Below, piece by piece: positions 107 through 23,260 of a stretch of 64,000 nucleotides of DNA. The stretch covers positions 7,236 through 71,235 of the forward strand of contig PFNQ01000013.1 of assembly GCA_002792115.1 (NCBI GenBank), written 5' to 3'. Below the pieces are notes generated by a model, which did not search any database, had not been told where the DNA came from, and was given only the letters and a program-made list of their open reading frames with translations. Within the stretch, counting starts at the first letter, position 1. Each line of letters starts with the position of its first letter. Source of the stretch: Candidatus Woesearchaeota archaeon CG_4_10_14_0_2_um_filter_33_13 (GTDB taxonomy: Archaea; Nanobdellota; Nanobdellia; Woesearchaeales; GW2011-AR9). Both the position numbers and the translations under genes were made by a program.

Positions 107-1195
107 ATGAAAATAGTTTTATTTGGCTTAAATGGACGAGGGGGAATGCTTCATTATACCTCTCAATATGCTAACGCTTTGTCAAAGAAAGTAGATGTTT
201 ATGTAATATTACCATCTTATTCAGATACAAGTTTATTTGATTCTTCAGTAAAGTTAATCAAGATAAATGCTCCTTTATCTGTTGTCAGAACACTGTTTTC
301 TTCTATCAATATAATTCAACATTTACAGTTAATTAGAACAATAAATGAACTCAATCCTTCAATAGTTCAATTTATGGATAATCATCCTTGGTACCTGCCT
401 TATGTTTATATGTTAAAAAGATATAAGATTTTTGTTACTCAACATGATCCTCAACTTCACTCTGGTGAAGCAAGGGGAATAAGATCATTTTTGATTAGCA
501 TAACTAACAAAGTTCTTAGAAATAAAGCAGATCGAGTAATTGTGCATGGTGAAGGATTAAAGAAAGTCTTATTAAAATATGGGGTTTCAGATAGAAAAAT
601 TTTGGTTGTTCCACACGGAGATTATTCTTTTTTCACTAAATATAGTCTCCCTAATATTAGAACAGAACCCTATACTATTTTACAATTTGGTAGGATTGTT
701 AAGTATAAAGGCGTAGATACTTTACTTAAAGCAATACCCTTGGTTAAGAAAAAGATTCCCCTGATTAAAGTTATTATCGCCGGAGAAGGAGATTTTTCCC
801 CTTATCGACAGTATTTAACAAAAGACATTAAAGAAAATGTTAAAATAATCAATCGTTATGTTCCTGATGAAGAAGTTGCTGAACTATTTCAAAAATGTTC
901 TTTTGTTGTTCTTCCTTATGATGATGCGACTCAGTCTGGGCCACTTCATGTTGCTTATTCGTTTAAGAAACCGGTAATTGTAACTGATGTTGGATGTTTG
1001 CCTGAGGTTGTTGATGATGGTAAGACTGGATTAATCATTAAGCCAAAAGACCCAGAAATTCTAGCAGAAGCTATAATCTCGATGTTTCATAAAGATTTAA
1101 AAGCCATGGGTGAGAATGGGTATATAAAAATGAAAGAATTAATGAATTGGGATAAAATCGCAGATATAATCCTTGTCAGCTTAAAACGCCTTTAA
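107..1195 (+). CDS. Glycosyltransferase, GT4 family (GT-B fold)
   Basis: C-terminal Glycos_transf_1-like region (KGVDTLLKAIPLV...IIAGEG... PVIVTDVGCLPEVVDDGKTG); start of sugar-modification island. Confidence 0.65.
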   Translation: MKIVLFGLNGRGGMLHYTSQYANALSKKVDVYVILPSYSDTSLFDSSVKLIKINAPLSVVRTLFSSINIIQHLQLIRTINELNPSIVQFMDNHPWYLPYVYMLKRYKIFVTQHDPQLHSGEARGIRSFLISITNKVLRNKADRVIVHGEGLKKVLLKYGVSDRKILVVPHGDYSFFTKYSLPNIRTEPYTILQFGRIVKYKGVDTLLKAIPLVKKKIPLIKVIIAGEGDFSPYRQYLTKDIKENVKIINRYVPDEEVAELFQKCSFVVLPYDDATQSGPLHVAYSFKKPVIVTDVGCLPEVVDDGKTGLIIKPKDPEILAEAIISMFHKDLKAMGENGYIKMKELMNWDKIADIILVSLKRL

Positions 1196-1228
1196 GCAGA
1201 TATTGTTCAGAGGAGTTGAATTACAAAA

Positions 1229-2377
1229 ATGGTGAGAAAAGTGTTTATTCAAAATGTTTCAAGTCCTTATTTTGGAACCTTAGGGATGCGTAAAAAGGAG
1301 GATTGTGTAGCTTTGTCTGCGAATATTATGGCAGAGAATGGATATCAATCTATTATTGTCGCAATTGACGTTCTTAAACTTGGTAATCTTAAACACCCAA
1401 AAGAAAAAAACACTATTCCTGAAGTAAAAATTTATAATTTTAAGAGAGTCTTAAATTATTTTATGTTTGCAAGGAAATATAACTCCGCAACTTTTTTTGG
1501 AAATGCAAGGACTATAGTGGGTTTAACAACTTGTTTTTTTGGGGAGTACAGGATTTTTATGAGTCATACTTGTAATCTCCCTACTCATTGGTTGGAAAGA
1601 AAGATATTATCTTTTTTTTTAAAGCGATTTGATGCTATCAAAGTTGAAAGTTATGCTGAAAAGAGGTTGCTTGAGAAACTCGGAATTAACTCCCACCGAA
1701 TTTTTGTAATTCCCATTCCTATCGATTTTGATTATTTTTCTCAAAAACCGAATTCAAATTTGCTTAAGGAGTTAAAGAGTAAATATTTTATAGCTAAAGA
1801 TGAAGTGATACTGATTTTCCTTGCAGCATTGAGGGAGCAAAAACGTGCTGATACCGTGTTAAAGGCAATCAAAGTCTTGAAAGACAGGGGGATCAAAGTA
1901 AAATTATTACAAGTTGGACAAGATTTACTTAAAGAAAGATTAGGCAAAAGTTTTGTTGAATTAGCAACAGAGATTGGCGTAAAAGAAAACATAATCTGCG
2001 CCGGAAGAGTTAAAGATGAAGAATTAAGGGCTTTAATACATTTATCTCAAATTGGTATTCAAAGTTCAGAGGTTGAAGGACAATGTATTGTTGCATTTGA
2101 ATTTGCTGCAGCAGGGATTCCAGAGTGTCTTTCAAATATTCCTTCCTTCGAGGTGTTTGGAGGAAATGTTTTAAGACATAATCCCAGCGATTATCAGAAA
2201 CTTGCTTTTAATATTGAGTTTTACTTAAACAACCCAAATATTGCAAAAAAACATGTTAATGAAAACAAAAGATTAGTCCAAGAAAAGTATGATTATGAAA
2301 CAGTAAAGTTAGAAATGAAAAAATTGTTGATTAATAAGAAAGAATGTCTTAAACGGAAAAAAAGGTGGTTTAAATGA
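1229..2377 (+). CDS. Glycosyltransferase, GT4-like (GT-B fold)
   Basis: Two-domain GT-B layout; C-terminal EGQCIVAFEFAAAGIP motif resembling GT4 EX7E region; TGA stop overlaps next ATG (ATGA). Confidence 0.5.
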   Translation: MVRKVFIQNVSSPYFGTLGMRKKEDCVALSANIMAENGYQSIIVAIDVLKLGNLKHPKEKNTIPEVKIYNFKRVLNYFMFARKYNSATFFGNARTIVGLTTCFFGEYRIFMSHTCNLPTHWLERKILSFFLKRFDAIKVESYAEKRLLEKLGINSHRIFVIPIPIDFDYFSQKPNSNLLKELKSKYFIAKDEVILIFLAALREQKRADTVLKAIKVLKDRGIKVKLLQVGQDLLKERLGKSFVELATEIGVKENIICAGRVKDEELRALIHLSQIGIQSSEVEGQCIVAFEFAAAGIPECLSNIPSFEVFGGNVLRHNPSDYQKLAFNIEFYLNNPNIAKKHVNENKRLVQEKYDYETVKLEMKKLLINKKECLKRKKRWFK

Positions 2378-3141
2378 AATTTTCTGCTATGGTGCATCAA
2401 TTAAGAGTGTTGACTTATATTATCATAAAAATAAAAAATTGGCCTGAGTTTTTGTATGCCCATCTTAGAAAAAGTAAAAGATTAATGGTTGTAACCTTAA
2501 GGGGGGGATTAAAAGTTTTAGTTCGGCCTTATATGTCTGATGTTACTATGCTAATGGAAACGTGGGGTATGGAAGATTATACACCACCTGGCTTTAAGAT
2601 AAGATCGACTGACATTGTTTTTGATATTGGGGGACATATTGGTTCTTTTTCAATGTATGCTGCGATCAAGGCAACAAAAGGAAAGGTATATTCTTTTGAG
2701 CCATTACCTGAAAATTATCAGATTTTCAAAAGTAACATAGAACAAAACAAATTAAGTAATATTCATCTGGAACAAAAGGCTGTTTCTGATAAGGGGGGGG
2801 TTGGACAATTGTTTCTTTGCAAGGGAACTCATTCTGGAAGCAGCAGTTTGTTTTATCGTAATACAAAGGATACTGTTTCTATTAAAAGAATAACACTGAC
2901 AGATTTTTTTGAGAAATATAAAATTAGCAAGGTTGATTTTATGAAAATAGATTGTGAGGGGGCAGAGTATGATATTTTATTTAGCTTGCCTAAGAAACAA
3001 CTATCTAAAATCAAAAGAATATCTATGGAATATCATGATACTATAAATCATCACACTCATAGAGAATTAATCCATTTTTTTAAAAATAATGGGTTTAAGA
3101 CGAGGTTGAGTGGTGAAATGATTTATGCTATTCAAAAGTAA
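2374..3141 (+). CDS. FkbM-family SAM-dependent methyltransferase
   Basis: FDIGGHIGSFSMYAA...YSFEPLPENYQIF motif typical of Methyltransf_21/FkbM; translationally coupled to upstream GT. Confidence 0.6.
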   Translation: MKFSAMVHQLRVLTYIIIKIKNWPEFLYAHLRKSKRLMVVTLRGGLKVLVRPYMSDVTMLMETWGMEDYTPPGFKIRSTDIVFDIGGHIGSFSMYAAIKATKGKVYSFEPLPENYQIFKSNIEQNKLSNIHLEQKAVSDKGGVGQLFLCKGTHSGSSSLFYRNTKDTVSIKRITLTDFFEKYKISKVDFMKIDCEGAEYDILFSLPKKQLSKIKRISMEYHDTINHHTHRELIHFFKNNGFKTRLSGEMIYAIQK

Positions 3142-3246: not shown

Positions 3247-3855
3247 TTACAGTTGTTCTTTTTGTGGTTTATCCTCTTCAGTCATAACAGCAATAATTGC
3301 GTTTTTCACACAATGTGTGATAGCTAAGTGCAAATCCTCACAAATTTCCATGTTATTTATGTTTACATGAACCGATTTTGAAGCAATCTCTTTTATTTTC
3401 CCTCCTGAAAAACCACACAATGCGATAGTCAAAGCACCAACTTTATTGGCGTATATTAACGGTTTTACAATATTTGGAGAATTTCCACTACCAGAAATAC
3501 CAATGACCAAGTCATTTGGTTTTAAAAATACTTTCAAACTTTCAAGAAATATATCCTCGTAAGACAAGTCGTTTGCGATTGCCATCATCGCTGGAGAATT
3601 ATCATTAAGACAAATAGACTTGAATTTTCTATGCAATTGGCAAGACAATCCTTTTAAGATATCTCCACAAAAATGGGACGCATTCGCACCACTTCCTCCA
3701 TTACCAAAAATGTATATTGTGCCATCATTCTTATAAGTATTAATAATATCTTGCGCAAAAGAAACAATCTCTCCCTGATTTATTTTTCCTATCGCTTCTT
3801 GTAATTGAGTTAAATAGTTCTGTGTTTCTTCTTTAATTTTGTTCATGTTCATCAC
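3247..3855 (-). CDS. gmhA: D-sedoheptulose-7-phosphate isomerase (SIS domain, GmhA)
   Basis: FGNGGSGANASHFCGDI, NDxxYEDIF, IGISGSGNSPNIV and E..H....H motifs match GmhA. Confidence 0.75.
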   Translation of the reverse strand: MMNMNKIKEETQNYLTQLQEAIGKINQGEIVSFAQDIINTYKNDGTIYIFGNGGSGANASHFCGDILKGLSCQLHRKFKSICLNDNSPAMMAIANDLSYEDIFLESLKVFLKPNDLVIGISGSGNSPNIVKPLIYANKVGALTIALCGFSGGKIKEIASKSVHVNINNMEICEDLHLAITHCVKNAIIAVMTEEDKPQKEQL

Positions 3856-4828
3856 CCATGTAAATTATTCTAGATCCTTCATAATCAAATTTAAATTTCA
3901 TCTCCTTTAATTGGTGTAATGCCAATCTCAATTTTTCTCTATTTTCTTTTTCACAATAAAATAAAAGAAAACCCCCTCCCCCTGCACCTAAAAGTTTTCC
4001 TCCTACTGCTCCATTTTGTATCCCTTTTTCATACATTTCATTAATGAAAGGGGTTGTAATTTTTGATGCAAGCTTTTGTTTAAGTTGCCAATTTCGATGT
4101 AATATTTTTCCAAATTCTGTTAAATTGTTGTTACACAAAGCATCTTTTGCATCCCAAACCAACTCTACCATCTTTTTAAGAATCTCAACTTTTTCATCTT
4201 CTTTCATATTTTCATTCTGCTCTGACAAGATAGATGACGCTTCTCTTTGGTTTCCTAAATAAAACAAAATGAGATTATTTTGTAATCTCGTGTTGGTTTC
4301 TTCTGCAAGATTAATAGGTTCTACCTCTACTTTACCATTTGGATAGAATTTAATTATATTAAGTCCTCCAAATGAAGCAGCATATTGGTCTTGTTTGCCT
4401 ATTGGTTCTTTAAGAGTATCTATTTCTATCTCACATGCTTCTGATGCAAGTTGCTCTTTTGTAACATTTCTTCCAGAAAAAGTATGAAGATTATGTAACA
4501 TCCCAACAGTAAAAGACGATGATGAGCCCATTCCTGTACCAGAAGGGATATCAGCACCAGAACTGATTTCAATTGCTCCGTTCATATTAAATTTCTTTAA
4601 CACTTCTCTTGCTATTGGGTGCTGGATTTGATTTACAGAATCAACTGTTTCAGTTTTGGAGTATTTAATCCTAATTTTATTCTCATCAAAAAAACGATGA
4701 GAAGTGATATACATATATTTGTCAATACTTGTGCTGAGCACTGCACCTGGAGAATTCTGATAAAAACGTTTTAAATCTGAGCCCCCACCAACAAAACTAA
4801 TTCTGAACGGTGTTTTTGTGATTATCAT
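3833..4828 (-). CDS. GHMP-family sugar kinase, probable D-glycero-D-manno-heptose-7-phosphate kinase (HddA-like)
   Basis: GHMP ATP-binding motif ADIPSGTGMGSSSSF; located between gmhA and the hddC-gmhB fusion. Confidence 0.65.
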   Translation of the reverse strand: MIITKTPFRISFVGGGSDLKRFYQNSPGAVLSTSIDKYMYITSHRFFDENKIRIKYSKTETVDSVNQIQHPIAREVLKKFNMNGAIEISSGADIPSGTGMGSSSSFTVGMLHNLHTFSGRNVTKEQLASEACEIEIDTLKEPIGKQDQYAASFGGLNIIKFYPNGKVEVEPINLAEETNTRLQNNLILFYLGNQREASSILSEQNENMKEDEKVEILKKMVELVWDAKDALCNNNLTEFGKILHRNWQLKQKLASKITTPFINEMYEKGIQNGAVGGKLLGAGGGGFLLFYCEKENREKLRLALHQLKEMKFKFDYEGSRIIYMGDEHEQN

Positions 4829-4921
4829 GTTTATTTATTACCAAGATACTTCGTTAAATCACGCCAACATCCTTTATAAATTTTGTTAAGTGAAGTTCTC
4901 CTAAAGTAATCCAAAAGATAA

Positions 4922-6211
4922 TTAACTATTAGATATTTGGATTATAAAATTAACTGCCGCGTTTAAGTCTGGGAACAAATAATCTGGTTTTCCATTAATG
5001 CATCCCTCTCCAGTCTTAACACCAACTGTTTTAATCCCTGCGTTTTTCCCACAACTTATATCTCTAAGAGAGTCTCCTACAAAAAATGATTTTTTGAAAT
5101 CAATGTTAAAATATTCTTTTGCTTTAAGCAAAAGTCCAATATCTGGTTTTCGGCAGTTACATCTTACTTTATAAGTTATATTCTCTCCTTGATAACCTTT
5201 GTCTGGGTGGTGAGGGCAGTAATATATTGCATCGAACTTTGCTCCATTTTGTCCAAGCATGCTTTCCATCTTTTTGTGGATTTCTTCTAGTTCCTTAATT
5301 GAGCAAAGTCCTCTTGCAACAACCGGTTGGTTTGTAATTAAGATTGCAAGTAATTCAGTGTGGTTAATTTTTCTAATGGCTTCAGATACTCCAGGAATCA
5401 ACTCAAATTCATTTATATCATAAATGTGATCTTTTTTAACATTAATAGTTCCATCTCTATCTATAAATATCGCCCCTCTTTTATTTTGAGCATTTAACCT
5501 TTTTATCTTTCCATTTTCCAAATCTTTTTTAACTTCATCAAATCTTTCTTTTGTACCCATATCTTTTAAATATTCAGCAGTATTATACCCATACACCAGT
5601 AAACTTTGTGGTAGGCGGGGGAAAATATCTTTACCAAAATCTTCTTTTTTTCCTTTTTTAATATGTTTAAATATCTCTGTAGAAAATATATATATTCCGG
5701 CGTTAACTAGATTGTTATAATATGTTTTATTTTGATGTGGTTTAGGATGAAATGCAATAATTCTTCCTTCTTCATTAACTTCTAAAAGGTCACTATCATG
5801 GGGGTGGTCGTTTGGGTGAATAACTAGTGTGCATTTACTTGATTTCTGGTTATGAAACTGTATCAACTTATTTATGTTTATATCAAACATAATATCTCCA
5901 TATAATACTAAGAAGTCTTCAACTAATTTATTTTCAATTTCTTTCAATCCACCAGTTGTTCCAAGGGGAATTGTTTCTGTATAATATTCAATATTAACTC
6001 CAAATTCTTTTCCATCTTTGAAGTATTCTTCAATTACATTAGATAAATGCCCAGTAATTAGGATAATCTCCGAGATTCCATACCTTTTAAGGATGTTTAT
6101 TTGGTGTTCTAATATTGGTTTACTCCCTATTTGTATCATTGGTTTTGGAATTTCTTTTGATATATCTCCCATTCGAGTACCTTTCCCACCTGCAATTATT
6201 ACTGCTTTCAT
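4922..6211 (-). CDS. Bifunctional heptose-1-phosphate nucleotidyltransferase (HddC-like) / D,D-heptose-1,7-bisphosphate phosphatase (GmhB)
   Basis: N-term NTP_transferase (MKAVIIAGGKGTRMG...PKPMIQIG); C-term HAD GmhB signature FIDRDGTIN, YYCPHHP, CNCRKP, FVGDSLRD aligns closely with E. coli GmhB. Confidence 0.8.
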   Translation of the reverse strand: MKAVIIAGGKGTRMGDISKEIPKPMIQIGSKPILEHQINILKRYGISEIILITGHLSNVIEEYFKDGKEFGVNIEYYTETIPLGTTGGLKEIENKLVEDFLVLYGDIMFDININKLIQFHNQKSSKCTLVIHPNDHPHDSDLLEVNEEGRIIAFHPKPHQNKTYYNNLVNAGIYIFSTEIFKHIKKGKKEDFGKDIFPRLPQSLLVYGYNTAEYLKDMGTKERFDEVKKDLENGKIKRLNAQNKRGAIFIDRDGTINVKKDHIYDINEFELIPGVSEAIRKINHTELLAILITNQPVVARGLCSIKELEEIHKKMESMLGQNGAKFDAIYYCPHHPDKGYQGENITYKVRCNCRKPDIGLLLKAKEYFNIDFKKSFFVGDSLRDISCGKNAGIKTVGVKTGEGCINGKPDYLFPDLNAAVNFIIQISNS

Positions 6212-6244
6212 CTTCTCATAGTAAGAATTCTATTAAATACAATT

Positions 6245-7210
6245 TTATTTTTTCACAACCCATTGGTTTTCTTTGATCCATTTGATTGTTTTTTCTACAC
6301 ATTCCATTATGGAATATTTTGGAGCCCACCCCAAAGATTTTATTTTTAAAGTATCAAGATGAACAAAGGGGCTGTCTCCAATCCATCCTCTACTCCCACC
6401 AGTATATTGAAAAGAGACGTCTTTGAGAGATAGTACATCACAAATTTTTTTTGCAATTGTCTTTATTTCTACAAAATCATCATTCCCCAGGTTGTAAATG
6501 TTTATTTTTTCGTTTGATTTTTCAATGGATAAAAACATTGCATCTATTGCGTCAGTTACATACAAAAATGATTTCCTTTGTTTTCCATCTCCAAGAATTT
6601 CTAACTGGCGGGGGTTTTGTAATAGTTTTTTATAAAAATCAAATGCACACCCATGGCTGTACCTTTCTCCCATAAGCGAAACAAATCTGTATATATACAC
6701 ATTAAATCCATATCCATTAGCATAGGCTTCTAAGAGGCCCTCGCATGCAAATTTTGAAGCTCCATAAATAGATGTTTGAATTGGAGATGAAACATTTTCT
6801 GGTGTTGGAAACACGCTTGGTTCTCCATAGATGGCTCCTGATGAAGCAAAAGCAATGTTCTTCACTCCCCATCGTCTCATTGCTTCCAGAACATTGTTTG
6901 TTGCAATGGTATTTTGATTTAAACATTTTATTGGGTCTTTTAGATTATCTTTTATGTCCGCATTTGCCGCCATATGAAATACAAAATCAATGTTTTCCAT
7001 TGCTTTGTGTAATGCTTCTTTATCTAGAATATCTCCTTGAATGAGTTCTACTTTTTCTTTTAAATGATTCACAAATTCTTTTTTCCCAGTAGTAAGGTTA
7101 TCATAAATAATGACATTATTGTTTAGAGAAATTAAGCGTTCAACAATATGACTACCAATGAAACCAGCCCCACCTGTAACTAATACTCTTTTATTATTCA
7201 ACAAGATCAT
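6245..7210 (-). CDS. NAD-dependent sugar epimerase/dehydratase (extended SDR)
   Basis: Rossmann VLVTGGAGFIGSH and catalytic YGASK motif. Confidence 0.85.
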   Translation of the reverse strand: MILLNNKRVLVTGGAGFIGSHIVERLISLNNNVIIYDNLTTGKKEFVNHLKEKVELIQGDILDKEALHKAMENIDFVFHMAANADIKDNLKDPIKCLNQNTIATNNVLEAMRRWGVKNIAFASSGAIYGEPSVFPTPENVSSPIQTSIYGASKFACEGLLEAYANGYGFNVYIYRFVSLMGERYSHGCAFDFYKKLLQNPRQLEILGDGKQRKSFLYVTDAIDAMFLSIEKSNEKINIYNLGNDDFVEIKTIAKKICDVLSLKDVSFQYTGGSRGWIGDSPFVHLDTLKIKSLGWAPKYSIMECVEKTIKWIKENQWVVKK

Positions 7211-7398: not shown

Positions 7399-8031
7399 TT
7401 AAATTTTCTCTAACTTCAAGATAGTTATTTCTCCCAATAGCCTACATCTTTTAATTGGCAAGTTAATATTAAGAATGGGTATGTGGGTTCTATTGTATAT
7501 TATGTTTATAATTTTAAACTTATCTTTAATCAACATCTTAATGGTGGCAGGGAATATTGGAGTGATATGGCCAGCACCAAGGTCTAAATAATCTTCTTTA
7601 TCAAAAAAATTTGCAAATTTCAGACTGAACAAGTACAATAATCGAGAGTACCAATTGGTAACATTTGGGGTTGTTAGTACAAGTTTTCCTCTTGGCTTTA
7701 AAACTCGATGAACTTCTCTAATGAACTGGTATGGGTTTTCTATGTGTTCAATTATTTCTATTGCAGTGACTAAATCAAAACTATTGTTCTCATATGGTAG
7801 AATGCCTTCATTTAGGTAAACTGAACAACAAGGTACATCTTTCAATTTAAATTTTTTACTAAATAATTCGCATGCTTTCCTTTCAAAATGCTCTTTATTT
7901 AAACTTGATAGAAATGCGCCAGATCCTGCAGCTATATCCAATATCTTCCCTCGCTCACCCTTTAATAATTCCCTAGCCGTTTCATGAACCCCTGGTGCTG
8001 CTCGAACCGGCAATTTAATTCTTTTTTCCAT
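7399..8031 (-). CDS. Class I SAM-dependent methyltransferase
   Basis: GKILDIAAGSGAF motif I; VLKPRGKLVLTTPN post-II region. Confidence 0.65.
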   Translation of the reverse strand: MEKRIKLPVRAAPGVHETARELLKGERGKILDIAAGSGAFLSSLNKEHFERKACELFSKKFKLKDVPCCSVYLNEGILPYENNSFDLVTAIEIIEHIENPYQFIREVHRVLKPRGKLVLTTPNVTNWYSRLLYLFSLKFANFFDKEDYLDLGAGHITPIFPATIKMLIKDKFKIINIIYNRTHIPILNINLPIKRCRLLGEITILKLEKI

Positions 8032-9061
8032 GTGTAATCCCCTTTTTTATTTGAGCATTCTTAATATTCAGTAGATGTTGTAAACAAACATTGTGTTCAC
8101 TATGTGTAGTGTGAACATATTGAGTACACTTTTTAATAAAACTTTCCCTAAATTTAACATTTTTAATTAACTTTAATGCCAGATTTGGAAGTTGAGAATT
8201 TTTTTTCTTAATTATTTCCCATTGGTCATTACAAACAACTGCAGTTCCACATGCCATCGCTTCTAATTCAACTAAACTTAAGACACCTTGCCAGAAGGAA
8301 CCTAGCACTAAGTCCGCAGAACGATACAACTTTGGAAGATCATTGCGTGGAAAGAAATTATGCCAGATGATATCGTCTTTATATGTTTCAAAGAAAGATT
8401 TATAACGGCCATATTGGCTAAACCTTTTTGGGTATTTAACCAAATGTAATTTAGCAGAAGGGCACTTTTCTTTTATTTTTGAAAATATCTTGAACCCGAA
8501 CTCTGGACTTTTGACTTTGTGCAAACGAGTTGGGAATAAGATAATTGGATTACCTTCTAATTGTATCTTTTCACCAGTTGGATTAAATATGTCCGTATTA
8601 ATTGGGTTTGGCAACCATTGCGCATCTTTTCTAATATATTTTAATGTTGGAAGAATACTAGGGATTGCAGCATAAACAATATCGTACTTTTTAACTGAAG
8701 AAATAATTTTATTCTCAACTATTCTATTTAATATTGTTCCAAAAAGATGACTAAAAAATTGACTATGTTTTAAAGAGTTCTTAGAATTAAGTCCAATTGA
8801 GAAACCATGCCAATGTGCAATCCCAACTTGCCTCTGGTTTGGTACCATATTAGTCATGTTTGACCACACATTACAATGTAAAATATCAAATCGAGACAAT
8901 TCGTCTTTTCTCATCTTTTTAAGATGAAGGTAATGGGTTATAAAGTCATAACGCCCACTCTTTGGTTGATAATAATAAAAATCCCATTCTTTCATATGTT
9001 TTTTAAAAGTGTCTAACAAAAAACCCGGACCAAATCCGTTCATAAAATATTTTCCCTTCAT
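8015..9061 (-). CDS. Glycosyltransferase, GT-B (GT4-like)
   Basis: C-terminal GSFWQGVLSLVELEAMACGTAVV resembling GT4 donor-binding EX7E/LEAMA.G.PV motif. Confidence 0.45.
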   Translation of the reverse strand: MKGKYFMNGFGPGFLLDTFKKHMKEWDFYYYQPKSGRYDFITHYLHLKKMRKDELSRFDILHCNVWSNMTNMVPNQRQVGIAHWHGFSIGLNSKNSLKHSQFFSHLFGTILNRIVENKIISSVKKYDIVYAAIPSILPTLKYIRKDAQWLPNPINTDIFNPTGEKIQLEGNPIILFPTRLHKVKSPEFGFKIFSKIKEKCPSAKLHLVKYPKRFSQYGRYKSFFETYKDDIIWHNFFPRNDLPKLYRSADLVLGSFWQGVLSLVELEAMACGTAVVCNDQWEIIKKKNSQLPNLALKLIKNVKFRESFIKKCTQYVHTTHSEHNVCLQHLLNIKNAQIKKGITHGKKN

Positions 9062-13500: not shown

Positions 13501-13504
13501 AAAA

Positions 13505-14221
13505 ATGAAAGTATTAATCCCCCTCGCAGGACGTGGCTCACGCTTTATTGAAGCAGGTTATACCCTGCCAAAACCATTGGTTCTTATTATTAAAGAACCA
13601 ATGATTCGATGGGCAACTAAAAACCTTAACATTGAGGATAAAGATTTGATTTTTTTCATTCTCAAGATCCATATCGATAATTATCAATTAGATCAGAAAT
13701 TAAGAGAAATATTCTCCGCTAATATCAAAATTGTTGTTGTGGATAAAATTACCGAAGGGGCTCCAATAACTCTTCTTCAGGCAAAAGACATTATCGATAC
13801 CGAAGAAGAACTTTTAATATTTAATGGAGACCAGAACTTCAAAGAAAACATTATAGAAATGATTCGTAATCTTCCATTAAAGTATTCTGGGTTAATACCT
13901 GTGTTTCATTCAACACAAACAAAATTTAGTTACGCTCAAGTTGATAAGGGTATGGATGTTATAGAAGTGGCAGAAAAGATTCCAATTTCTAGTTATGCAA
14001 CTGCAGGAGTTTACTATTTCCGCCATGGAAAAGATTTTGTGTGGGCCACAGAACAAATGATATCTAAAGATATTAGAAGAGGGAATGAATTCTTTGTTTG
14101 TCCAGTATACAATGAATTGCTTGGACGCGGGGACAAAATAAAAGCCACCTTAATTGAAACTTTCTGGCCTTTAGGAACACCAGAAGATGTAGAACACTTT
14201 AAAAGGTATTATCATCCTTGA
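13505..14221 (+). CDS. Sugar-/alditol-phosphate nucleotidyltransferase (LicC/NTP_transferase-like), paralog 1
   Basis: MKVLIPLAGRGSRF...PKPLV N-term; paralog of 15478..16197 (shared ...CPVYNELL..G.KI...WPLGTPEDV...). Confidence 0.6.
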   Translation: MKVLIPLAGRGSRFIEAGYTLPKPLVLIIKEPMIRWATKNLNIEDKDLIFFILKIHIDNYQLDQKLREIFSANIKIVVVDKITEGAPITLLQAKDIIDTEEELLIFNGDQNFKENIIEMIRNLPLKYSGLIPVFHSTQTKFSYAQVDKGMDVIEVAEKIPISSYATAGVYYFRHGKDFVWATEQMISKDIRRGNEFFVCPVYNELLGRGDKIKATLIETFWPLGTPEDVEHFKRYYHP

Positions 14222-15047: not shown

Positions 15048-15151
15048 ACTACTCTCCTTATAACTGTTTTTTATATTTTTTTCGCAAGAGATATAACTTT
15101 AGGTCGCTTTTTTTCATAATTATTATAAATAAAAAGCGTAACCTTTGTTCC

Positions 15152-16865: not shown

Positions 16866-18146
16866 TTAATTCTTTTTTTTAAGTGCGTAATAAAAGTAAA
16901 CTATCCCCAAACTAGTACTTAACAAAGTAGCCAATACTGCTCCGGTGATATAATATTTTGGTATCAGGATAACATTGAAGAGTATGTTACTTGCTGTTTG
17001 TAATATCATCCCATAAAAATAGTTCTTTGTTTTTCTTAAGCTTGTTGCAGTGAGTAATGACATATAAACCATGTTTATTGAAAGTAATGTTGATGCTAGG
17101 CAGAAGATGATCCATGAATTAATTAAAAAGGGGTAATCATATATTTTAACAACAATAATGTATGTGATTGGCAGGAGCACCATAAAAGCAAGAGGGGTAG
17201 AAAATAGCAATAGCTTGTTTATTTTCTTAAAAGCAGATCCTTTTTCTTTAAACTGGGTTATTGTTGGGAATAAAACATTAATGAACACACCCGTGATGGT
17301 TGCAATAATTATAGTTGAAGCTAAGAAATAAGCTTGATACATCCCCACACTTTCAGTTCCGTAAAAATAATTTAACATTATCTTGTCAACGTTGGCCAAA
17401 ACTATTCCAGAAACTGAAGCAAAAATAATAAATTGATTATATTGACTAATTTTATTAAATACTTTCTGATTAAAGGTGATCTTTATTTTAGGGATAATGT
17501 ATTTAGTAGTCAAAAAGAAACTAATGATATGTATACTAAATAATGGAAGCAAGATCAAATAAATGCCTCTCCCTGTGAAATATAAATACACAAATGTAAT
17601 AAACAATACACTATGTGATATTATTTGTATTGTAGACAACTCTTTGAACTTTAACAATGTTTTGAGAAAGTTATCAGAATAACTAGATAATGCGACTAGT
17701 AATGCGTAAAAAATACTCAAAATAATTGTACTTATTTCTACTTTAAAAACAATGCTTAACAAACCTTTTATCAAAAATAAAATTATTCCAGAGAAAATAA
17801 AAATTACAAAGTAGGAAATGGTTATTGTTGAGAGTAATTCTGTCTTTTTAACTTGGCTTTCTTCTTCTTGATAAAATTTAGTTAAGGCATTTCCCCCAGA
17901 AAAGATAATTATTGGTAGGCATAATATTGTTCCAATAGATATAATCAAGTTAACTTTACCATATATTGCTGGACCCAAAACTCTGCCACCAATTGTTTGG
18001 ACCATAAATAGTAATCCTTTGGCAAAAAGTGTTGCCAGTAAAACAAGGCCAACATTCTTAAGAAAAGCTTTCTCGCCAGAGCTAATCTCATTATTAAATA
18101 TTTTCTGGTGCAATTTATATATTAAGTTAAGTAATAATCTTTTCAT
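16866..18146 (-). CDS. Polysaccharide/oligosaccharide flippase (Wzx/MOP-like, multi-TM)
   Basis: 426 aa, roughly 12 hydrophobic helices, adjacent to GTs. Confidence 0.55.
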   Translation of the reverse strand: MKRLLLNLIYKLHQKIFNNEISSGEKAFLKNVGLVLLATLFAKGLLFMVQTIGGRVLGPAIYGKVNLIISIGTILCLPIIIFSGGNALTKFYQEEESQVKKTELLSTITISYFVIFIFSGIILFLIKGLLSIVFKVEISTIILSIFYALLVALSSYSDNFLKTLLKFKELSTIQIISHSVLFITFVYLYFTGRGIYLILLPLFSIHIISFFLTTKYIIPKIKITFNQKVFNKISQYNQFIIFASVSGIVLANVDKIMLNYFYGTESVGMYQAYFLASTIIIATITGVFINVLFPTITQFKEKGSAFKKINKLLLFSTPLAFMVLLPITYIIVVKIYDYPFLINSWIIFCLASTLLSINMVYMSLLTATSLRKTKNYFYGMILQTASNILFNVILIPKYYITGAVLATLLSTSLGIVYFYYALKKKN

Positions 18147-20356: not shown

Positions 20357-23260
20357 CTAGCAGTTGTAATCAACGATCCACGTTGAAATTTTCCCGCCAG
20401 TAAACTGTTGTACTTCATCAAACTTTTCAAAGCACTTCGTTCCAAGACCATCAAAAAAGAATAACTTGGTAAAGGTGCTGTACGCCAGCGACGTGTCAGA
20501 TAACAACGCAGCATACCCATTACCATTTGGAATCAGAATTAAAGATGAACCGATAGTCTGACCATCAAATTTTTGTTCTTTTAACTCTTTTCCTTGTACA
20601 TAAACTAAAGATGCTGGGGAAACATTTTGTCCGTTATTAGTTCTAACTTTAGCAATGGCTTCATTTAAATTGATATCTAATGTAATGGATCCTTGCTGAG
20701 TATTGATCTGGCAGGTTACATTTGCTGAACTACTATTCTGACATTGATTTAACCCAGAATGATAGCTTGGCCATGAAGCAATCCATTGATCGGCATCTGT
20801 GGTTTGTATTTCATAACGAATCCTGTCTGCTTCATCTTCAGTTAAGGAGAAATTTTTAGTTAAATAATTAATTGCATCATCTTTTTTCATATTTTTTGTA
20901 TTTTGATACATAACTGCTTTATCAAAATCCCAGCTTCCAAAATGTCCCCAAACTCCTGCTTTACCCACCATATCTTCTGAGGTGATGTAATAATCGGTTG
21001 GTGCTTCGCAGTGTGTGTATTGAATAACGGAAGCCACTTGATTAGCATTTAATCCATAATCATTTAAGGTTTCAATCGCAGCTTCTTTCTTTTCTACGAT
21101 TATTTTGTTGATTATCTTAATCTCTTTTGGCGTGTCATTGAAAATATTATCTAACTCTATGAATGCACTGTTTTGCCCGCAATTTAACATTCTGATTATG
21201 CCTACTGTTGTTTTTTCATCGCTTGTCAAAAGTGATTTCCCGACCCAATGGGCATCCCATCCAACTTGCATACCTCCATCAAAGGTTGTTGGTCGCTCAG
21301 CTATCGCCATAAACCAGTATCCAAAATCCCACCACGAAGTTATCACTGCTTCAGCGGGAGCTTCGCTATTGATCTTAGTTAAAGTGTTATGCCAAGCATC
21401 ATTCATCGCTGGTACAGAATTGTATGCAGTTGAATATCCTGCCATGCTTGGTTGAATTAATAGCACTCCTAACAATAAAAATACAACCACCTTTGAAATA
21501 GTTAAATTAAGATTTAGTTCTTTATTAGTCCAATTACTAATATAACTCCAAGCTAATCCCAAGAATGCACCGAATAATATTGCCACTATCGGTGCAACCA
21601 TTAAAATAAACCTAACTCCCCTTGTTGTAGTATATAATGCTATAGCTAACCAAAAAGATAAAATTAATGCAATCATCAAATTATTGTTTGATTTATCTTT
21701 AACATTTCTTAACATCAATAAAATAATTCCTACTATCGCTAGAGTAAAAATTAGTTTTCCTCCTACTTGGCTGATTACTTGTGAGAATGGAGCAACATTA
21801 AGCTCTGCTACTGTAGTTAAGATATTTGGCCATAAGGAATCTATTGCTACTGCCTTTAAGTGGATTAATGAATTTATTGGTTCAAACAATCCGCTGTAAA
21901 AAGAGTTAAACGAACTAAATATAGAAACAAAAAGTCCTGAACTTATGAGGTAGGTTCCAAATAGGGACACATTTGAGAAAAAATCATCTTTCTTAATTAG
22001 AGTTTTAAGAGCCTTAGAATTTCTAATTAATTCATAAGCAAAGTATGAAAGCATAGATACTGCAAATATGGAAAAGAAATACCACCAAGCTCCCCACACA
22101 AAACTAAGTAATCCTGTTGCTAAACCAGCTAAGACAGTCCAACCTAATTTCTTCTTTAAATCCTTGCAAGTAATCGCTTCAATTAATAACCACAAAATCA
22201 GTATTGGAAAGAAGACAACGTAAACATCTGTGTCTGAACTTTCTCCGGTGGTTCTGGAAACAAAAAAAGCTGAGACTGCAATTAAAATAGCAACAAAAAA
22301 TCCACCAACATTATTTTTAGTGATTTTTTTACCGATAAAGAATGCAGGAATAACTGTTAATGCTGAGAAGATAGTTCCTATTAAAAAGAAACTAAACATC
22401 AATGGTACGTCTGAAAAAGAACTTAAAAATCGATGTAAAAATGCTCCAAACCAGGTGTGAAAATTTCCCCCTTCTGGTGAACCAGTTGGGTAGGCTCGAT
22501 AAGAATCATAATACTTTCCATCTTTTATTGAATTACCCGGATGACCATTTTCTAATCTATATTCTGTTTGTCTGTAAAAATAATAAGGGTCAATTCCTAA
22601 CAGATATAAAGTTCCCTGATCATCTCTAAACTGATCTTTATATTGTTGTGATACTTGCTTAATATCATTATTAACCTGGTCCTTGTTTTTCTCTTTTAAT
22701 TTTTGCAATTCATTCTGGACTAATGCATCTCTGTTTTGTTGTGGCAAGTTAGGATACTGTTGATTGATCTGGGCGGTAACTTGATTTTGATAAAAATTAT
22801 TAACTGTATTGTCGGCCCATTCATCGGTTATTGACATTCTTAATGGCATGGTTCGTAGATAAACAGAAGCAAACATAGCAATTAAAATAAATAATGCGGG
22901 GATGATCCATTTAGCATTAGTTTTAGCAAAAGTGGTAATTTTTGAAAAATCTACAGAAAGTTCGTCATCATTAACTTCTTTTTTGTGATGTTTATGTTCC
23001 GGATGGGAATGTTTATCTTTATCAGAAGAAGTTAAGCTTTTAAAAAATCGTTTAGCTTTATTTTTTATCTCAGAAAAATCTATTGATAAATCCTCATTAT
23101 CCTTATGAAACTCTTTTTTAACAACTTCTACTTTCCCAAGAGTGATCGTTTTTTTGTCACTATGATGTTGCAAAGTGTCTTCTGTTTTTGTTTCTTCCTG
23201 CTCCTCAGTATTAGAATCAATCTTAATATCTTTAGCCAATTTTCCACCCCAATAATCCAT
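20357..23260 (-). CDS. aglB: Archaeal oligosaccharyltransferase AglB (STT3 family)
   Basis: Polytopic N-terminal domain with EL1 motif GIDPYYFYRQTE and catalytic SWWDFGYW (WWDYG) motif plus large C-terminal globular domain. Confidence 0.85.
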   Translation of the reverse strand: MDYWGGKLAKDIKIDSNTEEQEETKTEDTLQHHSDKKTITLGKVEVVKKEFHKDNEDLSIDFSEIKNKAKRFFKSLTSSDKDKHSHPEHKHHKKEVNDDELSVDFSKITTFAKTNAKWIIPALFILIAMFASVYLRTMPLRMSITDEWADNTVNNFYQNQVTAQINQQYPNLPQQNRDALVQNELQKLKEKNKDQVNNDIKQVSQQYKDQFRDDQGTLYLLGIDPYYFYRQTEYRLENGHPGNSIKDGKYYDSYRAYPTGSPEGGNFHTWFGAFLHRFLSSFSDVPLMFSFFLIGTIFSALTVIPAFFIGKKITKNNVGGFFVAILIAVSAFFVSRTTGESSDTDVYVVFFPILILWLLIEAITCKDLKKKLGWTVLAGLATGLLSFVWGAWWYFFSIFAVSMLSYFAYELIRNSKALKTLIKKDDFFSNVSLFGTYLISSGLFVSIFSSFNSFYSGLFEPINSLIHLKAVAIDSLWPNILTTVAELNVAPFSQVISQVGGKLIFTLAIVGIILLMLRNVKDKSNNNLMIALILSFWLAIALYTTTRGVRFILMVAPIVAILFGAFLGLAWSYISNWTNKELNLNLTISKVVVFLLLGVLLIQPSMAGYSTAYNSVPAMNDAWHNTLTKINSEAPAEAVITSWWDFGYWFMAIAERPTTFDGGMQVGWDAHWVGKSLLTSDEKTTVGIIRMLNCGQNSAFIELDNIFNDTPKEIKIINKIIVEKKEAAIETLNDYGLNANQVASVIQYTHCEAPTDYYITSEDMVGKAGVWGHFGSWDFDKAVMYQNTKNMKKDDAINYLTKNFSLTEDEADRIRYEIQTTDADQWIASWPSYHSGLNQCQNSSSANVTCQINTQQGSITLDINLNEAIAKVRTNNGQNVSPASLVYVQGKELKEQKFDGQTIGSSLILIPNGNGYAALLSDTSLAYSTFTKLFFFDGLGTKCFEKFDEVQQFTGGKISTWIVDYNC

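What the first reader, a model, noticed from the sequence alone, without database searches (positions are those of the whole stretch)
3247..7210. Complete nucleotide-activated D-glycero-D-manno-heptose pathway in an archaeon, with an unusual HddC-GmhB fusion
GmhA (isomerase), a GHMP kinase (HddA-like) and one polypeptide fusing a heptose-1-P nucleotidyltransferase with GmhB phosphatase sit in a row with an SDR epimerase. The GmhB half carries FIDRDGTIN, YYCPHHP and CNCRKP.

This is the bacterial GDP/ADP-heptose route known from LPS cores and S-layer glycans. It is rare in archaea, and this fusion topology differs from bacterial HldE (a kinase-adenylyltransferase fusion). The implication is that heptose is a component of this organism's N-glycan or S-layer glycan, probably acquired horizontally.
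Basis: partly seen in the sequence, partly recalled or inferred. Interest (0 to 1): 0.6.

Follow-up and report, generated by a model that had tools for sequence, protein, structure and literature searches.

The report
Activated-heptose gene cassette in a DPANN archaeon
A tiny uncultured archaeon carries a four-gene cassette, shared with hundreds of bacteria, that most likely makes a nucleotide-activated seven-carbon sugar for its surface glycans; the fused enzyme in it is real, but it is common in sequence databases and has not been studied biochemically.

Summary
Four minus-strand ORFs at 3247-7210 encode a GmhA-like isomerase, an HddA-like GHMP kinase, a nucleotidyltransferase-GmhB fusion with all quoted motifs, and an SDR.

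- The window is archaeal: it encodes TFB, GatD and AglB, and NCBI labels the fusion protein Woesearchaeota.
- The cassette lies in a roughly 23-kb glycan cluster with a flippase and the oligosaccharyltransferase AglB.
- The fusion is not unusual. At least 596 bacterial species representatives carry it, as do CPR bacteria and several DPANN archaea. HddA lies beside it in 67 of 80 loci and GmhA in 62 of 80, and the SDR directly upstream in about 30.
- Archaeal copies nest among bacterial ones, at 57-66% identity to bacterial homologues, which fits horizontal transfer.

Details that differ from the textbook route:
- The transferase half resembles mannose-1-P guanylyltransferases more than HddC, but it keeps HddC's guanine-binding Glu motif.
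- The GmhA is a conserved variant in which the catalytic Glu is replaced by Asp.
- The SDR belongs to the GDP-sugar 4-epimerase subgroup, so the end product may be a C4 epimer.

I found no paper on the fusion. This is an uncharacterised variant of a known pathway. Interest is moderate.

The parts
3247..3855 (-). GmhA-like SIS-domain isomerase, proposed step 1 (sedoheptulose-7-P to heptose-7-P). It is a variant type: the catalytic Glu is replaced by Asp (HFCGD), the canonical IQExH motif reads CEDLH, and the phosphate loop GISGSGNS is kept.
   Evidence: Pfam SIS_2 scores 1.4e-17. TIGR00441 gmhA scores 97 bits, below its 209-bit cutoff. The best solved relatives are all phosphoheptose isomerases, led by 1tk9 at 3e-21. 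The Asp/ED-x-H variant is conserved in about 40 bacterial cassettes, whereas Firmicutes cassettes carry the canonical type.
3833..4828 (-). HddA-like GHMP kinase, proposed step 2 (heptose-7-P to alpha-heptose-1,7-bisphosphate).
   Evidence: GHMP_kinases_N and _C are both found. The best NCBIfam hit is HddA at 163 bits, below its 600-bit cutoff. The top three solved relatives are heptose kinases: 3k85 at 2.7e-43, WcbL 4usk at 4.7e-37 and C. jejuni 4n3o at 7e-37. The next hits, fucokinase and galactokinase, reach only about 1e-15. A homologue lies next to the fusion in 67 of 80 bacterial loci, at up to 66% identity.
5492..6211 (-). N-terminal sugar-1-phosphate nucleotidyltransferase domain of the fusion (aa 1 to about 240), proposed step 4 (heptose-1-P + NTP, probably GTP, to NDP-heptose).
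   Evidence: PF00483 scores 4e-40. The nearest solved relatives are 8x7s/tlr0611 (1e-37) and GMPPB/VTC1 (1e-26), while Yersinia HddC scores 4e-17 by sequence and TM 0.85 by fold. The GxGxR motif and E79-x-x-P-L-G-T-x-G-G match HddC's guanine-binding EXXPLGTGGA motif (PMC6981941). E79 is kept in 98% of 199 fusion proteins, and the clade-specific HPxxHxxDS motif in 100%.
4922..5482 (-). C-terminal GmhB-type HAD-IIIA phosphatase domain of the fusion (aa about 244-429), proposed step 3 (removal of the 7-phosphate).
   Evidence: PRK08942 GmhB scores 160 bits (cutoff 178), TIGR00213 scores 131 (cutoff 149.6), and HAD-SF-IIIA scores 107 (cutoff 44.6). E. coli GmhB 2gmw scores 1.8e-32 against 2.5e-10 for HisB-N 2fpr. 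The fold match to E. coli GmhB has TM 0.91, rmsd 1.8 A and 35% identity. D251, D253, K355, D384 and the Zn site C332/H334/C351/C353 are kept in 100% of 199 fusions, D380 in 99% and T293 in 95%.
6245..7210 (-). GalE-type SDR of the GDP-sugar 4-epimerase subgroup, proposed step 5 (modification of the NDP-heptose, most simply C4 epimerisation).
   Evidence: The best solved relatives are 3ehe (2e-82), 8rdg PhGal4E_1 (1.5e-74) and 3icp/3aw9. PMC12171764 names 3EHE, 3AW9 and PhGal4E_1 (8RDG) as members of the archaeal, promiscuous GDP-sugar 4-epimerase subgroup. The S..YxxxK triad and H182 are kept, and there is no dehydratase Asp-Glu pair. Homologues with a shared signature lie directly upstream of the fusion in about 30 of 80 bacterial loci.
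7399..9061 (-). Co-directional upstream genes: a class I methyltransferase (7399-8031) and a GT4 glycosyltransferase (8015-9061). They are probably in the same transcription unit.
   Evidence: Pfam hits. The two ORFs overlap each other by 17 nt and lie on the same strand as the cassette.
107..3141 (+). Convergent neighbours: two GT4 glycosyltransferases and an FkbM-type methyltransferase.
16866..18146 (-). Wzx-like polysaccharide flippase in the same glycan cluster.
   Evidence: PF01943 Polysacc_synt scores 4.8e-16.
20357..23260 (-). AglB/STT3 oligosaccharyltransferase (967 aa), about 13 kb from the cassette. It links the cluster to N-glycosylation.
   Evidence: PF02516 STT3 scores 6.8e-45 and the STT3/PglB/AglB core domain is also found.

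Best explanation
The four genes form a mobile cassette for an alpha-configured nucleotide-activated heptose.

Proposed steps:
1. The GmhA-like isomerase converts sedoheptulose-7-phosphate into a heptose-7-phosphate. By default this is the D-glycero-D-manno form.
2. The HddA-like GHMP kinase adds the anomeric phosphate, giving the alpha-1,7-bisphosphate.
3. The C-terminal GmhB domain of the fused protein removes the 7-phosphate.
4. The N-terminal nucleotidyltransferase domain of the same polypeptide couples the heptose-1-phosphate to an NTP. [quoted passage not shown] The neighbouring GalE-type SDR then modifies the sugar nucleotide, most simply by C4 epimerisation.

The product would feed the surrounding GT4 and GT2 glycosyltransferases and methyltransferases. 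After flipping, the glycan would be transferred by AglB to surface proteins.

What is shown: the gene content, the domain families, conservation of every catalytic residue in both halves of the fusion, and conserved gene order in many bacteria. What is inferred: the substrates, the nucleotide, the stereochemistry, the SDR reaction and the glycan destination. The cassette most likely entered this DPANN lineage from bacteria.
For: Family assignment: for the kinase and the phosphatase half the closest characterised or solved relatives are heptose-pathway proteins; for GmhA the phosphoheptose isomerases lead only modestly, with the non-enzyme paralogue DiaA at 7e-15 against 3e-21.

Genomic linkage: HddA lies beside the fusion in 67 of 80 bacterial loci, GmhA in 62 of 80, and the SDR directly upstream in about 30 of 80, in the same order as in the window. 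The same order is seen in L085, whose protein cluster includes Peregrinibacteria members.

Both halves look active. The HAD motifs and the Zn site are 95-100% conserved, and GxGxR and K23 are about 99-100% conserved, in 199 fusion proteins. AlphaFold2 gives a confident two-domain model (pLDDT 92.8, pTM 0.90).

Two independent hints point to GDP. E79 sits in an HddC-like EXXPLGTxGG guanine motif. The SDR's closest solved relatives are GDP-sugar 4-epimerases.

Alpha configuration: GHMP sugar kinases and PF00483 transferases use alpha-1-phosphates (established knowledge; C. jejuni pathway in PMC10680097).

Glycan context: GT4 genes, methyltransferases, a flippase and AglB lie in the same cluster.

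Horizontal transfer: the fusion is 57% and HddA 66% identical to bacterial homologues, and archaeal sequences are scattered among bacterial ones in the NJ tree.
Against: - None of the four proteins reaches the curated NCBIfam equivalog cutoffs: GmhA 97/209, HddA 163/600, GmhB 160/178, HddC 113/300.
- The transferase half scores higher against a mannose-1-P guanylyltransferase model (174 bits) and a UTP-glucose-1-P uridylyltransferase structure (8x7s) than against HddC, so homology alone fixes neither the sugar nor the nucleotide.
- The GmhA has Asp in place of the catalytic Glu. At least one GmhA homologue, HygP, gives a different heptose stereoisomer.
- The SDR differs from PhGal4E_1 at three of the four residues shown to matter for sugar positioning (P80A, R83K, N174S).
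- No source of sedoheptulose-7-P was seen in the 64-kb window.
- No experimental data exist for any member of this cassette type.
Confidence: 0.7

Rival explanations
1. This is the same kind of pathway with a different product. The variant GmhA, or the SDR, yields a heptose other than D-glycero-D-manno (for example altro, gluco, talo or L-glycero). Alternatively, the transferase uses UTP, CTP or ATP instead of GTP.
For: - The GmhA variant with Glu to Asp and Gln to Glu is conserved as a distinct clade.
- HygP, an S7P isomerase homologue, gives D-glycero-D-altro-heptose-7-P (PMC10948575).
- The top solved relative of the transferase half is annotated as a UTP-dependent enzyme (8x7s).
- One third of close homologues (39 of 120) carry an extra uridine-kinase-like domain.
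Against: - The guanine-binding Glu of HddC is kept in 98% of fusion proteins, whereas uridylyltransferases have Gln there.
- The partner SDR falls with GDP-preferring 4-epimerases.
- The Asp and His that replace or keep the catalytic pair are chemically compatible with the normal GmhA reaction.
Confidence: 0.17
2. This is a hexose version of the route: a phosphomannomutase-independent way to GDP-mannose. The steps would be fructose-6-P to mannose-6-P by the SIS protein, then to mannose-1,6-bisphosphate by the GHMP kinase, then to mannose-1-P by the HAD domain, then to GDP-mannose by the transferase domain.
For: - The transferase half is most similar to mannose-1-P guanylyltransferases.
- HddC enzymes accept alpha-mannose-1-P in assays (PMC6981941).
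- The SIS protein is atypical for GmhA.
- Archaeal PGI/PMI enzymes are also SIS proteins (weak TIGR02128 hit).
Against: - The kinase's three best solved relatives are heptose kinases, with a gap of about 20 orders of magnitude in E-value to hexose kinases.
- The HAD half is GmhB-like.
- The SIS protein's best hits are all phosphoheptose isomerases.
- Some bacterial cassettes pair the same fusion with a canonical GmhA.
Confidence: 0.07
3. The genes are linked but functionally unrelated. Either the HAD half is a housekeeping phosphatase, for example a histidinol-phosphate phosphatase, or the fusion is a gene-calling or assembly artefact.
For: TIGR01656 'Histidinol-ppas' domain model is exceeded, and GmhB and HisB-N are close paralogues (PMC9798254).
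Against: - E. coli GmhB scores 1.8e-32 against 2.5e-10 for HisB-N.
- The single ORF is found in three independent assemblies, in more than 100 full-length homologues and in complete isolate genomes such as Geosporobacter ferrireducens and Holdemanella biformis.
- No his genes are nearby.
Confidence: 0.02

Closest known systems
[quoted passage not shown]
   Same: It uses the same four chemical steps and the same four protein superfamilies: SIS isomerase, GHMP kinase, HAD-IIIA Zn-loop phosphatase and PF00483 nucleotidyltransferase. The guanine-binding Glu motif is shared. The product is used for surface glycans.
   Different: - The phosphatase and the transferase are one polypeptide.
- The transferase belongs to a GMPP/CugP-like clade with its own HPxxHxxDS motif, not to the HddC equivalog.
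- The GmhA is a Glu-to-Asp variant.
- A GalE-type SDR is a conserved fifth member.
- All four proteins fall below the curated family cutoffs.
[quoted passage not shown] 2024, via PMC11461863)
   Same: It is also a fused bifunctional enzyme in NDP-heptose synthesis. It shows that heptose nucleotides are not restricted to bacteria.
   Different: HldE fuses steps 2 and 4 using PfkB and cytidylyltransferase folds, and it makes beta-anomers. Here steps 3 and 4 are fused using HAD and RmlA-like folds, and the pathway is the alpha type.
PhGal4E_1 and the archaeal GDP-sugar 4-epimerase subgroup (PDB 8RDG, 3EHE, 3AW9; PMC12171764)
   Same: The window's SDR is 40-43% identical to these enzymes. It has the same length and the same catalytic triad, and H182 is conserved.
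   Different: Three of the four sugar-positioning residues differ (P80A, R83K, N174S). The cassette SDRs form their own signature group (AAN[SA]DI, RFPNVxG). A heptose substrate has never been tested.
GDP-mannose pyrophosphorylases (GMPPB, VTC1, Rv3264c-type) and cyanobacterial CugP-like tlr0611 (8x7s)
   Same: These are the closest sequence relatives of the transferase half, at 22-30% identity with the same fold.
   Different: Those enzymes carry a C-terminal left-handed beta-helix domain. Here a GmhB phosphatase occupies that position.
HisB (HisN-IGPD fusion) and FKP (fucokinase/GDP-fucose pyrophosphorylase)
   Same: These are precedents for fusing a GmhB-like HAD phosphatase, or a sugar-1-P nucleotidyltransferase, to another enzyme of the same pathway.
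   Different: They have different partner domains and belong to different pathways.

Membership tests
GmhB (D-glycero-D-manno-heptose-1,7-bisphosphate 7-phosphatase, HAD-IIIA) | The four HAD motifs: DxDGT nucleophile, Thr/Ser, Lys, and the acidic motif IV. | tested here: met
   D251-R-D253-G, T293, K355 and D380/D384 are present. They are 95-100% conserved in 199 fusion proteins.
GmhB (D-glycero-D-manno-heptose-1,7-bisphosphate 7-phosphatase, HAD-IIIA) | Zn-binding loop Cys-x-His ... Cys-x-Cys. | tested here: met
   C332-P-H334 and C351-N-C353 are present and 100% conserved. HisB-N shares this loop, so it does not discriminate between the two families.
GmhB (D-glycero-D-manno-heptose-1,7-bisphosphate 7-phosphatase, HAD-IIIA) | Scores above the curated equivalog or subfamily cutoff. 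| tested here: not met
   PRK08942 scores 160.3 against a cutoff of 178. TIGR00213 scores 131.2 against 149.6. NF050049 (alpha type) scores 111.5 against 250. The broader HAD-SF-IIIA and TIGR01656 cutoffs are exceeded.
GmhB (D-glycero-D-manno-heptose-1,7-bisphosphate 7-phosphatase, HAD-IIIA) | Closer to characterised GmhB than to histidinol-phosphate phosphatase. | tested here: met
   E. coli GmhB scores 1.8e-32 and HisB-N 2.5e-10. The fold match to GmhB has TM 0.91 and 35% identity.
GmhB (D-glycero-D-manno-heptose-1,7-bisphosphate 7-phosphatase, HAD-IIIA) | Catalytic preference for heptose-1,7-bisphosphate, and anomer preference. | not testable with these tools
   This needs an enzyme assay.
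[quoted passage not shown] | GxGxR signature and the EXXPLGTGGA motif with guanine-binding Glu80 (PMC6981941). | tested here: met
   G9-K-G-T-R13 is present. E79-T-I-P-L-G-T-T-G-G matches 8 of 10 motif positions, with the Glu kept in 98% of fusions.
[quoted passage not shown] | Scores above the equivalog cutoff, and is closest to characterised HddC. | tested here: not met
   NF049965 scores 112.9 against a cutoff of 300. The mannose-1-P GTase model scores 174.3. In the PDB, 8x7s scores 1e-37 and GMPPB 1e-26, against 4e-17 for Yersinia HddC.
[quoted passage not shown] | Genomic association with gmhA, hddA and gmhB. | tested here: met
   It is fused to GmhB. HddA is adjacent in 67 of 80 loci and GmhA in 62 of 80.
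HddA (D-glycero-D-manno-heptose-7-P 1-kinase, GHMP) | GHMP N and C domains with the P-x-G-[ST]-G-[LM]-G-S-S motif, and closest to known heptose kinases. | tested here: met
   IPSGTGMGSSSS is present. 3k85, WcbL and Cj HddA score 1e-37 to 1e-43, and the next families score about 1e-15.
HddA (D-glycero-D-manno-heptose-7-P 1-kinase, GHMP) | Scores above the equivalog cutoff. | tested here: not met
   NF049969 scores 163.5 against a cutoff of 600.
GmhA (sedoheptulose-7-P isomerase, SIS) | Catalytic Glu (E65 in E. coli) and His (H180), plus the Ser/Thr phosphate loop. | tested here: inconclusive
   The His and the GISGSGNS loop are kept. The Glu is replaced by Asp, and the Gln of IQExH by Glu. This is a conserved variant in about 40 cassettes.
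GmhA (sedoheptulose-7-P isomerase, SIS) | Scores above the equivalog cutoff. | tested here: not met
   TIGR00441 scores 97.4 against a cutoff of 209. All the best solved relatives are nevertheless GmhA.
GDP-sugar 4-epimerase subgroup of Gal4E (PhGal4E_1 type) | The [S/T]..YxxxK triad with a Rossmann GxxGxxG, and no dehydratase Asp-Glu pair. | tested here: met
   GGAGFIGS, SSG..., and Y-G-A-S-K are present.
GDP-sugar 4-epimerase subgroup of Gal4E (PhGal4E_1 type) | The key residues P80, R83, N174 and H182 identified in PhGal4E_1. | tested here: inconclusive
   H182 is kept. The other three differ: P80 to A, R83 to K, N174 to S. The bacterial cassette SDRs keep N174 and H182 but not P80 or R83.
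GDP-sugar 4-epimerase subgroup of Gal4E (PhGal4E_1 type) | Activity on GDP-sugars, here on a GDP-heptose. | not testable with these tools
   This needs an enzyme assay with GDP-heptose.
HldE-type beta route | A PfkB kinase and a cytidylyltransferase-fold adenylyltransferase. | tested here: not met
   Neither fold is present in the cassette. The only PfkB gene in the window (48596-49606) sits with nucleoside-salvage genes.

The most novel reading that the evidence does not exclude
The conserved five-activity cassette (variant GmhA, HddA, fused GmhB-transferase, GalE-type SDR) makes a heptose nucleotide not yet described. The simplest candidate is the C4 epimer, GDP-D-glycero-alpha-D-talo-heptose, made by the first direct NDP-heptose 4-epimerase. 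In this Woesearchaeote the product would be built into an AglB-dependent N-glycan, which would be the first heptose-containing archaeal N-glycan.
Probability: 0.2. Interest if true: 0.6.

Novelty: new variant of a known kind. Interest (0 to 1): 0.35.

Why it matters
- It predicts heptose, or a modified heptose, in the surface glycans of DPANN archaea. These organisms depend on cell-cell contact with hosts, and their glycans are uncharted.
- It defines a widespread but uncharacterised form of the alpha-heptose pathway. The cassette occurs in hundreds of bacterial species, including gut Bacteroidales and Firmicutes, CPR bacteria and DPANN archaea. Current annotation names only one of the fused protein's two activities.
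- The fused enzyme would be a convenient one-protein catalyst for making GDP-heptoses.
- The conserved SDR partner suggests a sugar-nucleotide reaction that has not been tested.
- The cassette's distribution is a clear example of gene sharing between bacteria and ultra-small archaea.

Tried and rejected
- The tRNA and Rfam scans of the window found nothing, so they give no RNA marker of origin and no integration-site clue.
- Four literature searches for an HddC-GmhB or nucleotidyltransferase-GmhB fusion found no description of it. The two key GmhB papers (PMC2844805, PMC2844806) are not held, so a brief mention there cannot be excluded. The hisB/gmhB evolution papers do not mention the fusion.
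The window's own genome is not in that set, so the number of archaeal carriers could not be counted.
- The cluster-member look-up gave organism names for only one of ten proteins.
- The NJ tree has no support values and a star-like crown. It shows interleaving of the domains, not a donor lineage.
- GC content across the cassette (0.32) equals that of its flanks, so there is no compositional sign of recent transfer.
- I considered whether another transferase in the window is the true HddC. The three other PF00483 genes are of the Arch_glmU/RmlA-long type and score lower on HddC, so I rejected this.
- I considered a 4,6-dehydratase (DmhA/GMD-like) or an HldD-like 6-epimerase role for the SDR. 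It lacks the dehydratase acid/base pair. It scores 93 bits on the heptose 6-epimerase model, against 167 bits on GalE and 255-281 bits on the solved GDP-sugar 4-epimerases 8rdg and 3ehe. I therefore ranked these roles lower but did not exclude them.
- The Foldseek search of the PDB found no solved chain that covers both halves of the fusion.

Full report
**Observation**

The region 3247-7210 holds four minus-strand ORFs exactly as described: 3247-3855, 3833-4828, 4922-6211 and 6245-7210. The first two overlap by 23 nt, and the other gaps are 93 and 33 nt. Two more co-directional genes follow upstream, a methyltransferase at 7399-8031 and a GT4 glycosyltransferase at 8015-9061. The quoted motifs FIDRDGTIN, YYCPHHP and CNCRKP are all in the C-terminal half of the 429-aa ORF.

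Pfam and NCBIfam give these assignments:
- 3247-3855: SIS/GmhA.
- 3833-4828: GHMP kinase, best hit HddA.
- 4922-6211: NTP_transferase (aa 2-232) followed by HAD-IIIA/GmhB (aa 246-404).
- 6245-7210: an extended SDR.

The identical fusion protein, in the same gene order, is present in three independent assemblies. NCBI names it 'D,D-heptose 1,7-bisphosphate phosphatase [Candidatus Woesearchaeota archaeon CG_4_10_14_0_2_um...]'.

**Host and context**

The window is archaeal. It encodes TFB (44672-45592), a RadB/Rad51-like protein, GatD, a PAC2 proteasome chaperone and an AglB/STT3 oligosaccharyltransferase.

The cassette sits in a glycan island that spans at least 107-23260. The island holds:
- four GT4 genes and a GT2;
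- FkbM-type and class I methyltransferases;
- a B12-binding radical SAM enzyme;
- an FGGY kinase, two more nucleotidyltransferases, a GDPD protein and a histidine phosphatase;
- a Wzx-like flippase (16866-18146);
- AglB (20357-23260).

GT-C (PMT_2) genes and another GT2 follow, up to about 31 kb.

**What each protein is**

- **Kinase.** Its three best solved relatives are heptose kinases: B. thetaiotaomicron 3k85 (2.7e-43), B. pseudomallei WcbL and C. jejuni HddA. There is a gap of about 20 orders of magnitude in E-value to fucokinase and galactokinase.
- **HAD half of the fusion.** It matches E. coli GmhB at 1.8e-32 and HisB-N at 2.5e-10. The AlphaFold2 model (pLDDT 92.8, pTM 0.90) superposes on E. 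coli GmhB with TM 0.91 and rmsd 1.8 A.
- **SIS protein.** Its best solved relatives are all phosphoheptose isomerases, led by 1tk9 at 3e-21.
- **Transferase half.** It is nearest to tlr0611/8x7s (annotated as a UTP-glucose-1-P uridylyltransferase) and to GDP-mannose pyrophosphorylases. Yersinia HddC follows at 4e-17 by sequence and TM 0.85 by fold. Those closer relatives carry a C-terminal beta-helix domain (established knowledge; the alignments end at residue ~223 of 360 in GMPPB and ~272 of 401 in 8x7s), and here a GmhB domain occupies that position.

None of the four proteins reaches the curated NCBIfam equivalog cutoffs. I therefore say it 'works like' the GmhA/HddA/GmhB/HddC route. I do not file the proteins as equivalogs.

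**Is the fusion unusual?**

No.
- A capped scan of GTDB species representatives found at least 596 carriers. The best 80 were all bacteria: Bacteroidales, Flavobacteriales, Saccharibacteria, Gastranaerophilales, many Clostridia, Holdemanella biformis DSM 3989, Geosporobacter ferrireducens IRF9, Corallococcus, Roseateles, Phycisphaerales and others.
- In those 80 loci, an HddA homologue lies next to the fusion in 67, a GmhA homologue in 62, and an SDR homologue directly upstream in about 30. The order is the same as in the window.
- The window's nearest neighbour, P0011 at 62% identity, belongs to a protein cluster with Candidatus Peregrinibacteria members and has the identical four-gene order.
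- Among named close homologues, four are DPANN (two Woesearchaeota, one Nanoarchaeota, one Diapherotrites).

The cassette is thus a widely shared module. In a neighbour-joining tree of 199 fusion proteins (no support values), the deep branches are bacterial. The archaeal sequences are scattered in a star-like crown together with Planctomycetota, Saccharibacteria and Firmicutes sequences. Together with 57% (fusion) and up to 66% (HddA) identity to bacterial proteins, this fits horizontal transfer from bacteria into archaea, possibly more than once. GC content gives no sign of recent arrival.

**Are both halves functional?**

Across the 199 fusion proteins:
- The HAD nucleophile pair, the Lys and the Zn-site Cys/His/Cys/Cys residues are 100% conserved, the motif IV Asp residues 99-100%, and the motif II Thr 95%.
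- GxGxR and K23 are about 99-100% conserved.
- A clade-specific motif, H132-P-x-x-H136-x-x-D139-S140, in the sugar-binding region of the transferase is 100% conserved.

Both domains are therefore under purifying selection. The fusion links consecutive steps, removal of the 7-phosphate and then nucleotidyl transfer. Hand-over of heptose-1-phosphate between the two sites is a reasonable inference, but it is untested.

**Which nucleotide?**

Homology of the transferase half alone cannot decide, because its top hit is annotated as UTP-dependent and the next hits are GTP-dependent. Two independent hints favour GTP.
- Yersinia HddC binds the guanine N1 and N2 atoms through Glu80 of the family motif EXXPLGTGGA, whereas uridylyltransferases have Gln at that position (PMC6981941). 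The window has E79-T-I-P-L-G-T-T-G-G, and the Glu is kept in 98% of fusion proteins.

**The SDR**

It is 40-43% identical to 3EHE and 8RDG. It keeps the S..YxxxK triad and H182, and it differs at P80, R83 and N174. The SDRs directly upstream of the fusion in bacteria share a signature (HxAAN[SA]DI, AS[ST]SAIYG, RFPNVxGxRxTHG) and are 40-47% identical to the same two structures. The SDR is therefore a conserved fifth cassette member.

The simplest role is C4 epimerisation of the heptose nucleotide. No such enzyme is described in the C. jejuni heptose work, where C4 chemistry uses a separate dehydrogenase and reductases (PMC10680097). A C6 epimerase or an oxidoreductase role cannot be excluded.

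**The GmhA variant**

Alignment with solved GmhAs shows the catalytic Glu replaced by Asp (HFCGD) and IQExH replaced by xEDxH. The His and the phosphate loop are kept. This variant is conserved in about 40 bacterial cassettes, while the Firmicutes cassettes carry a canonical GmhA next to the same fusion.

The S7P isomerase homologue HygP yields D-glycero-D-altro-heptose-7-P (PMC10948575). The stereochemistry of the product here should therefore be treated as unproven.

**Rivals**

- A hexose version of the route, a phosphomannomutase-independent path to GDP-mannose, is compatible with the transferase similarity and the odd SIS protein. The kinase, phosphatase and isomerase affinities argue against it, as do the cassettes with a canonical GmhA.
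- A histidinol-phosphatase role and an assembly artefact are effectively excluded.

**Comparison with what is known**

[quoted passage not shown] The differences are the domain fusion, the clade of the transferase, the GmhA variant and the conserved SDR.

The cassette is unrelated in fold and in step pairing to HldE. HldE homologues have already been shown to be functional in archaea (PMC11461863), so heptose nucleotides in archaea are not new in themselves.

I found no paper that describes this fusion. Database names such as 'HAD-IIIA family hydrolase' and 'D,D-heptose 1,7-bisphosphate phosphatase' capture only one of its two activities.

**Verdict**

The finding is real and mostly well read, but the fusion is not rare. 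It is best described as an uncharacterised, widely distributed variant of the alpha-heptose pathway, here carried by a Woesearchaeote inside an AglB-linked glycan cluster. Interest is moderate at 0.35. The main open points, all testable in vitro, are the nucleotide, the sugar stereochemistry and the SDR reaction.

Noticed in passing
Homologues P0007, P0020, P0028, P0118 and others; loci L004, L005, L009-L013, L086: About one third of the closest homologues (39 of 120) are triple fusions of about 625 aa. They carry an extra C-terminal P-loop domain that most resembles uridine kinase/phosphoribulokinase (67 bits, below the family cutoff). They occur in Bacteroidales and also in Nanoarchaeota and Woesearchaeota. 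They usually still sit next to HddA and GmhA, so the extra domain does not simply replace the kinase. Its role is unknown.
   Followed up: partly
L086 (Nanoarchaeota GCA_016782615.1), 1-21887: This DPANN contig has the SDR plus a triple fusion but no GHMP kinase or SIS gene within 10 kb. It does carry two GT9 (heptosyltransferase-family) genes and a split HldE-like pair, PfkB kinase plus a cytidylyltransferase-fold protein. Alpha-type and beta-type heptose enzymes may therefore coexist in one archaeon.
   Followed up: no
window 3247-3855 and loci L005-L085: Two distinct GmhA types accompany the same fusion. One is a variant with Asp in place of the catalytic Glu and ED-x-H in place of QE-x-H, found in the window, Bacteroidota, CPR bacteria and others. 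The other is a canonical type, found in Firmicutes and some Prevotella.
   Followed up: partly
window 5771-5815 (aa 132-141 of the fusion): The motif H-P-N-D-H-P-x-D-S-D is invariant or nearly so in 199 fusion proteins. In GDP-mannose pyrophosphorylases the aligned stretch reads '...EEPSKYGVV'. It may adapt the sugar pocket to a heptose, or bind a metal.
   Followed up: partly
window 11878-16793: The same glycan cluster holds a second apparent activation pathway: a xylulokinase-like FGGY kinase, two divergent PF00483 nucleotidyltransferases, a glycerophosphodiester phosphodiesterase and a histidine-phosphatase-family protein. It may make a nucleotide-activated pentulose or polyol phosphate.
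   Followed up: partly
window 10345-11856; also L086 14378-15829: A B12-binding radical SAM enzyme lies next to the heptose cassette, both in the window and in the Nanoarchaeota locus. It may be a sugar C-methyltransferase or another glycan-tailoring enzyme.
   Followed up: no
window 32914-35311: An unfused HAD hydrolase (33884-34585) and an Arch_glmU/AglF-like nucleotidyltransferase (34613-35311) follow a CofD-like 2-phospho-L-lactate transferase homologue. This is a separate phosphatase-plus-transferase pair, not of the heptose type.
   Followed up: partly
L086 11928-13202 and L087 9443-10741: A flavin amine-oxidase/NAD_binding_8 protein of about 425-430 aa lies directly after the cassette in two loci. 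It might be a pyranose-furanose mutase-like or oxidase tailoring enzyme for the heptose nucleotide.
   Followed up: no
window 38775-42119: A 1114-aa protein combines a lamin-tail domain, a Nup98-type S59 autopeptidase domain and a CARDB domain. It is likely a large self-processing surface protein and a candidate glycoprotein.
   Followed up: no
L088-L090 (IMG/VR contigs): Three predicted viral contigs carry the fusion at or near full length, matching query residues 1-394 to 1-424 at 42-47% identity. Whether these are true phage genes or host flanks of prophages was not examined.
   Followed up: no
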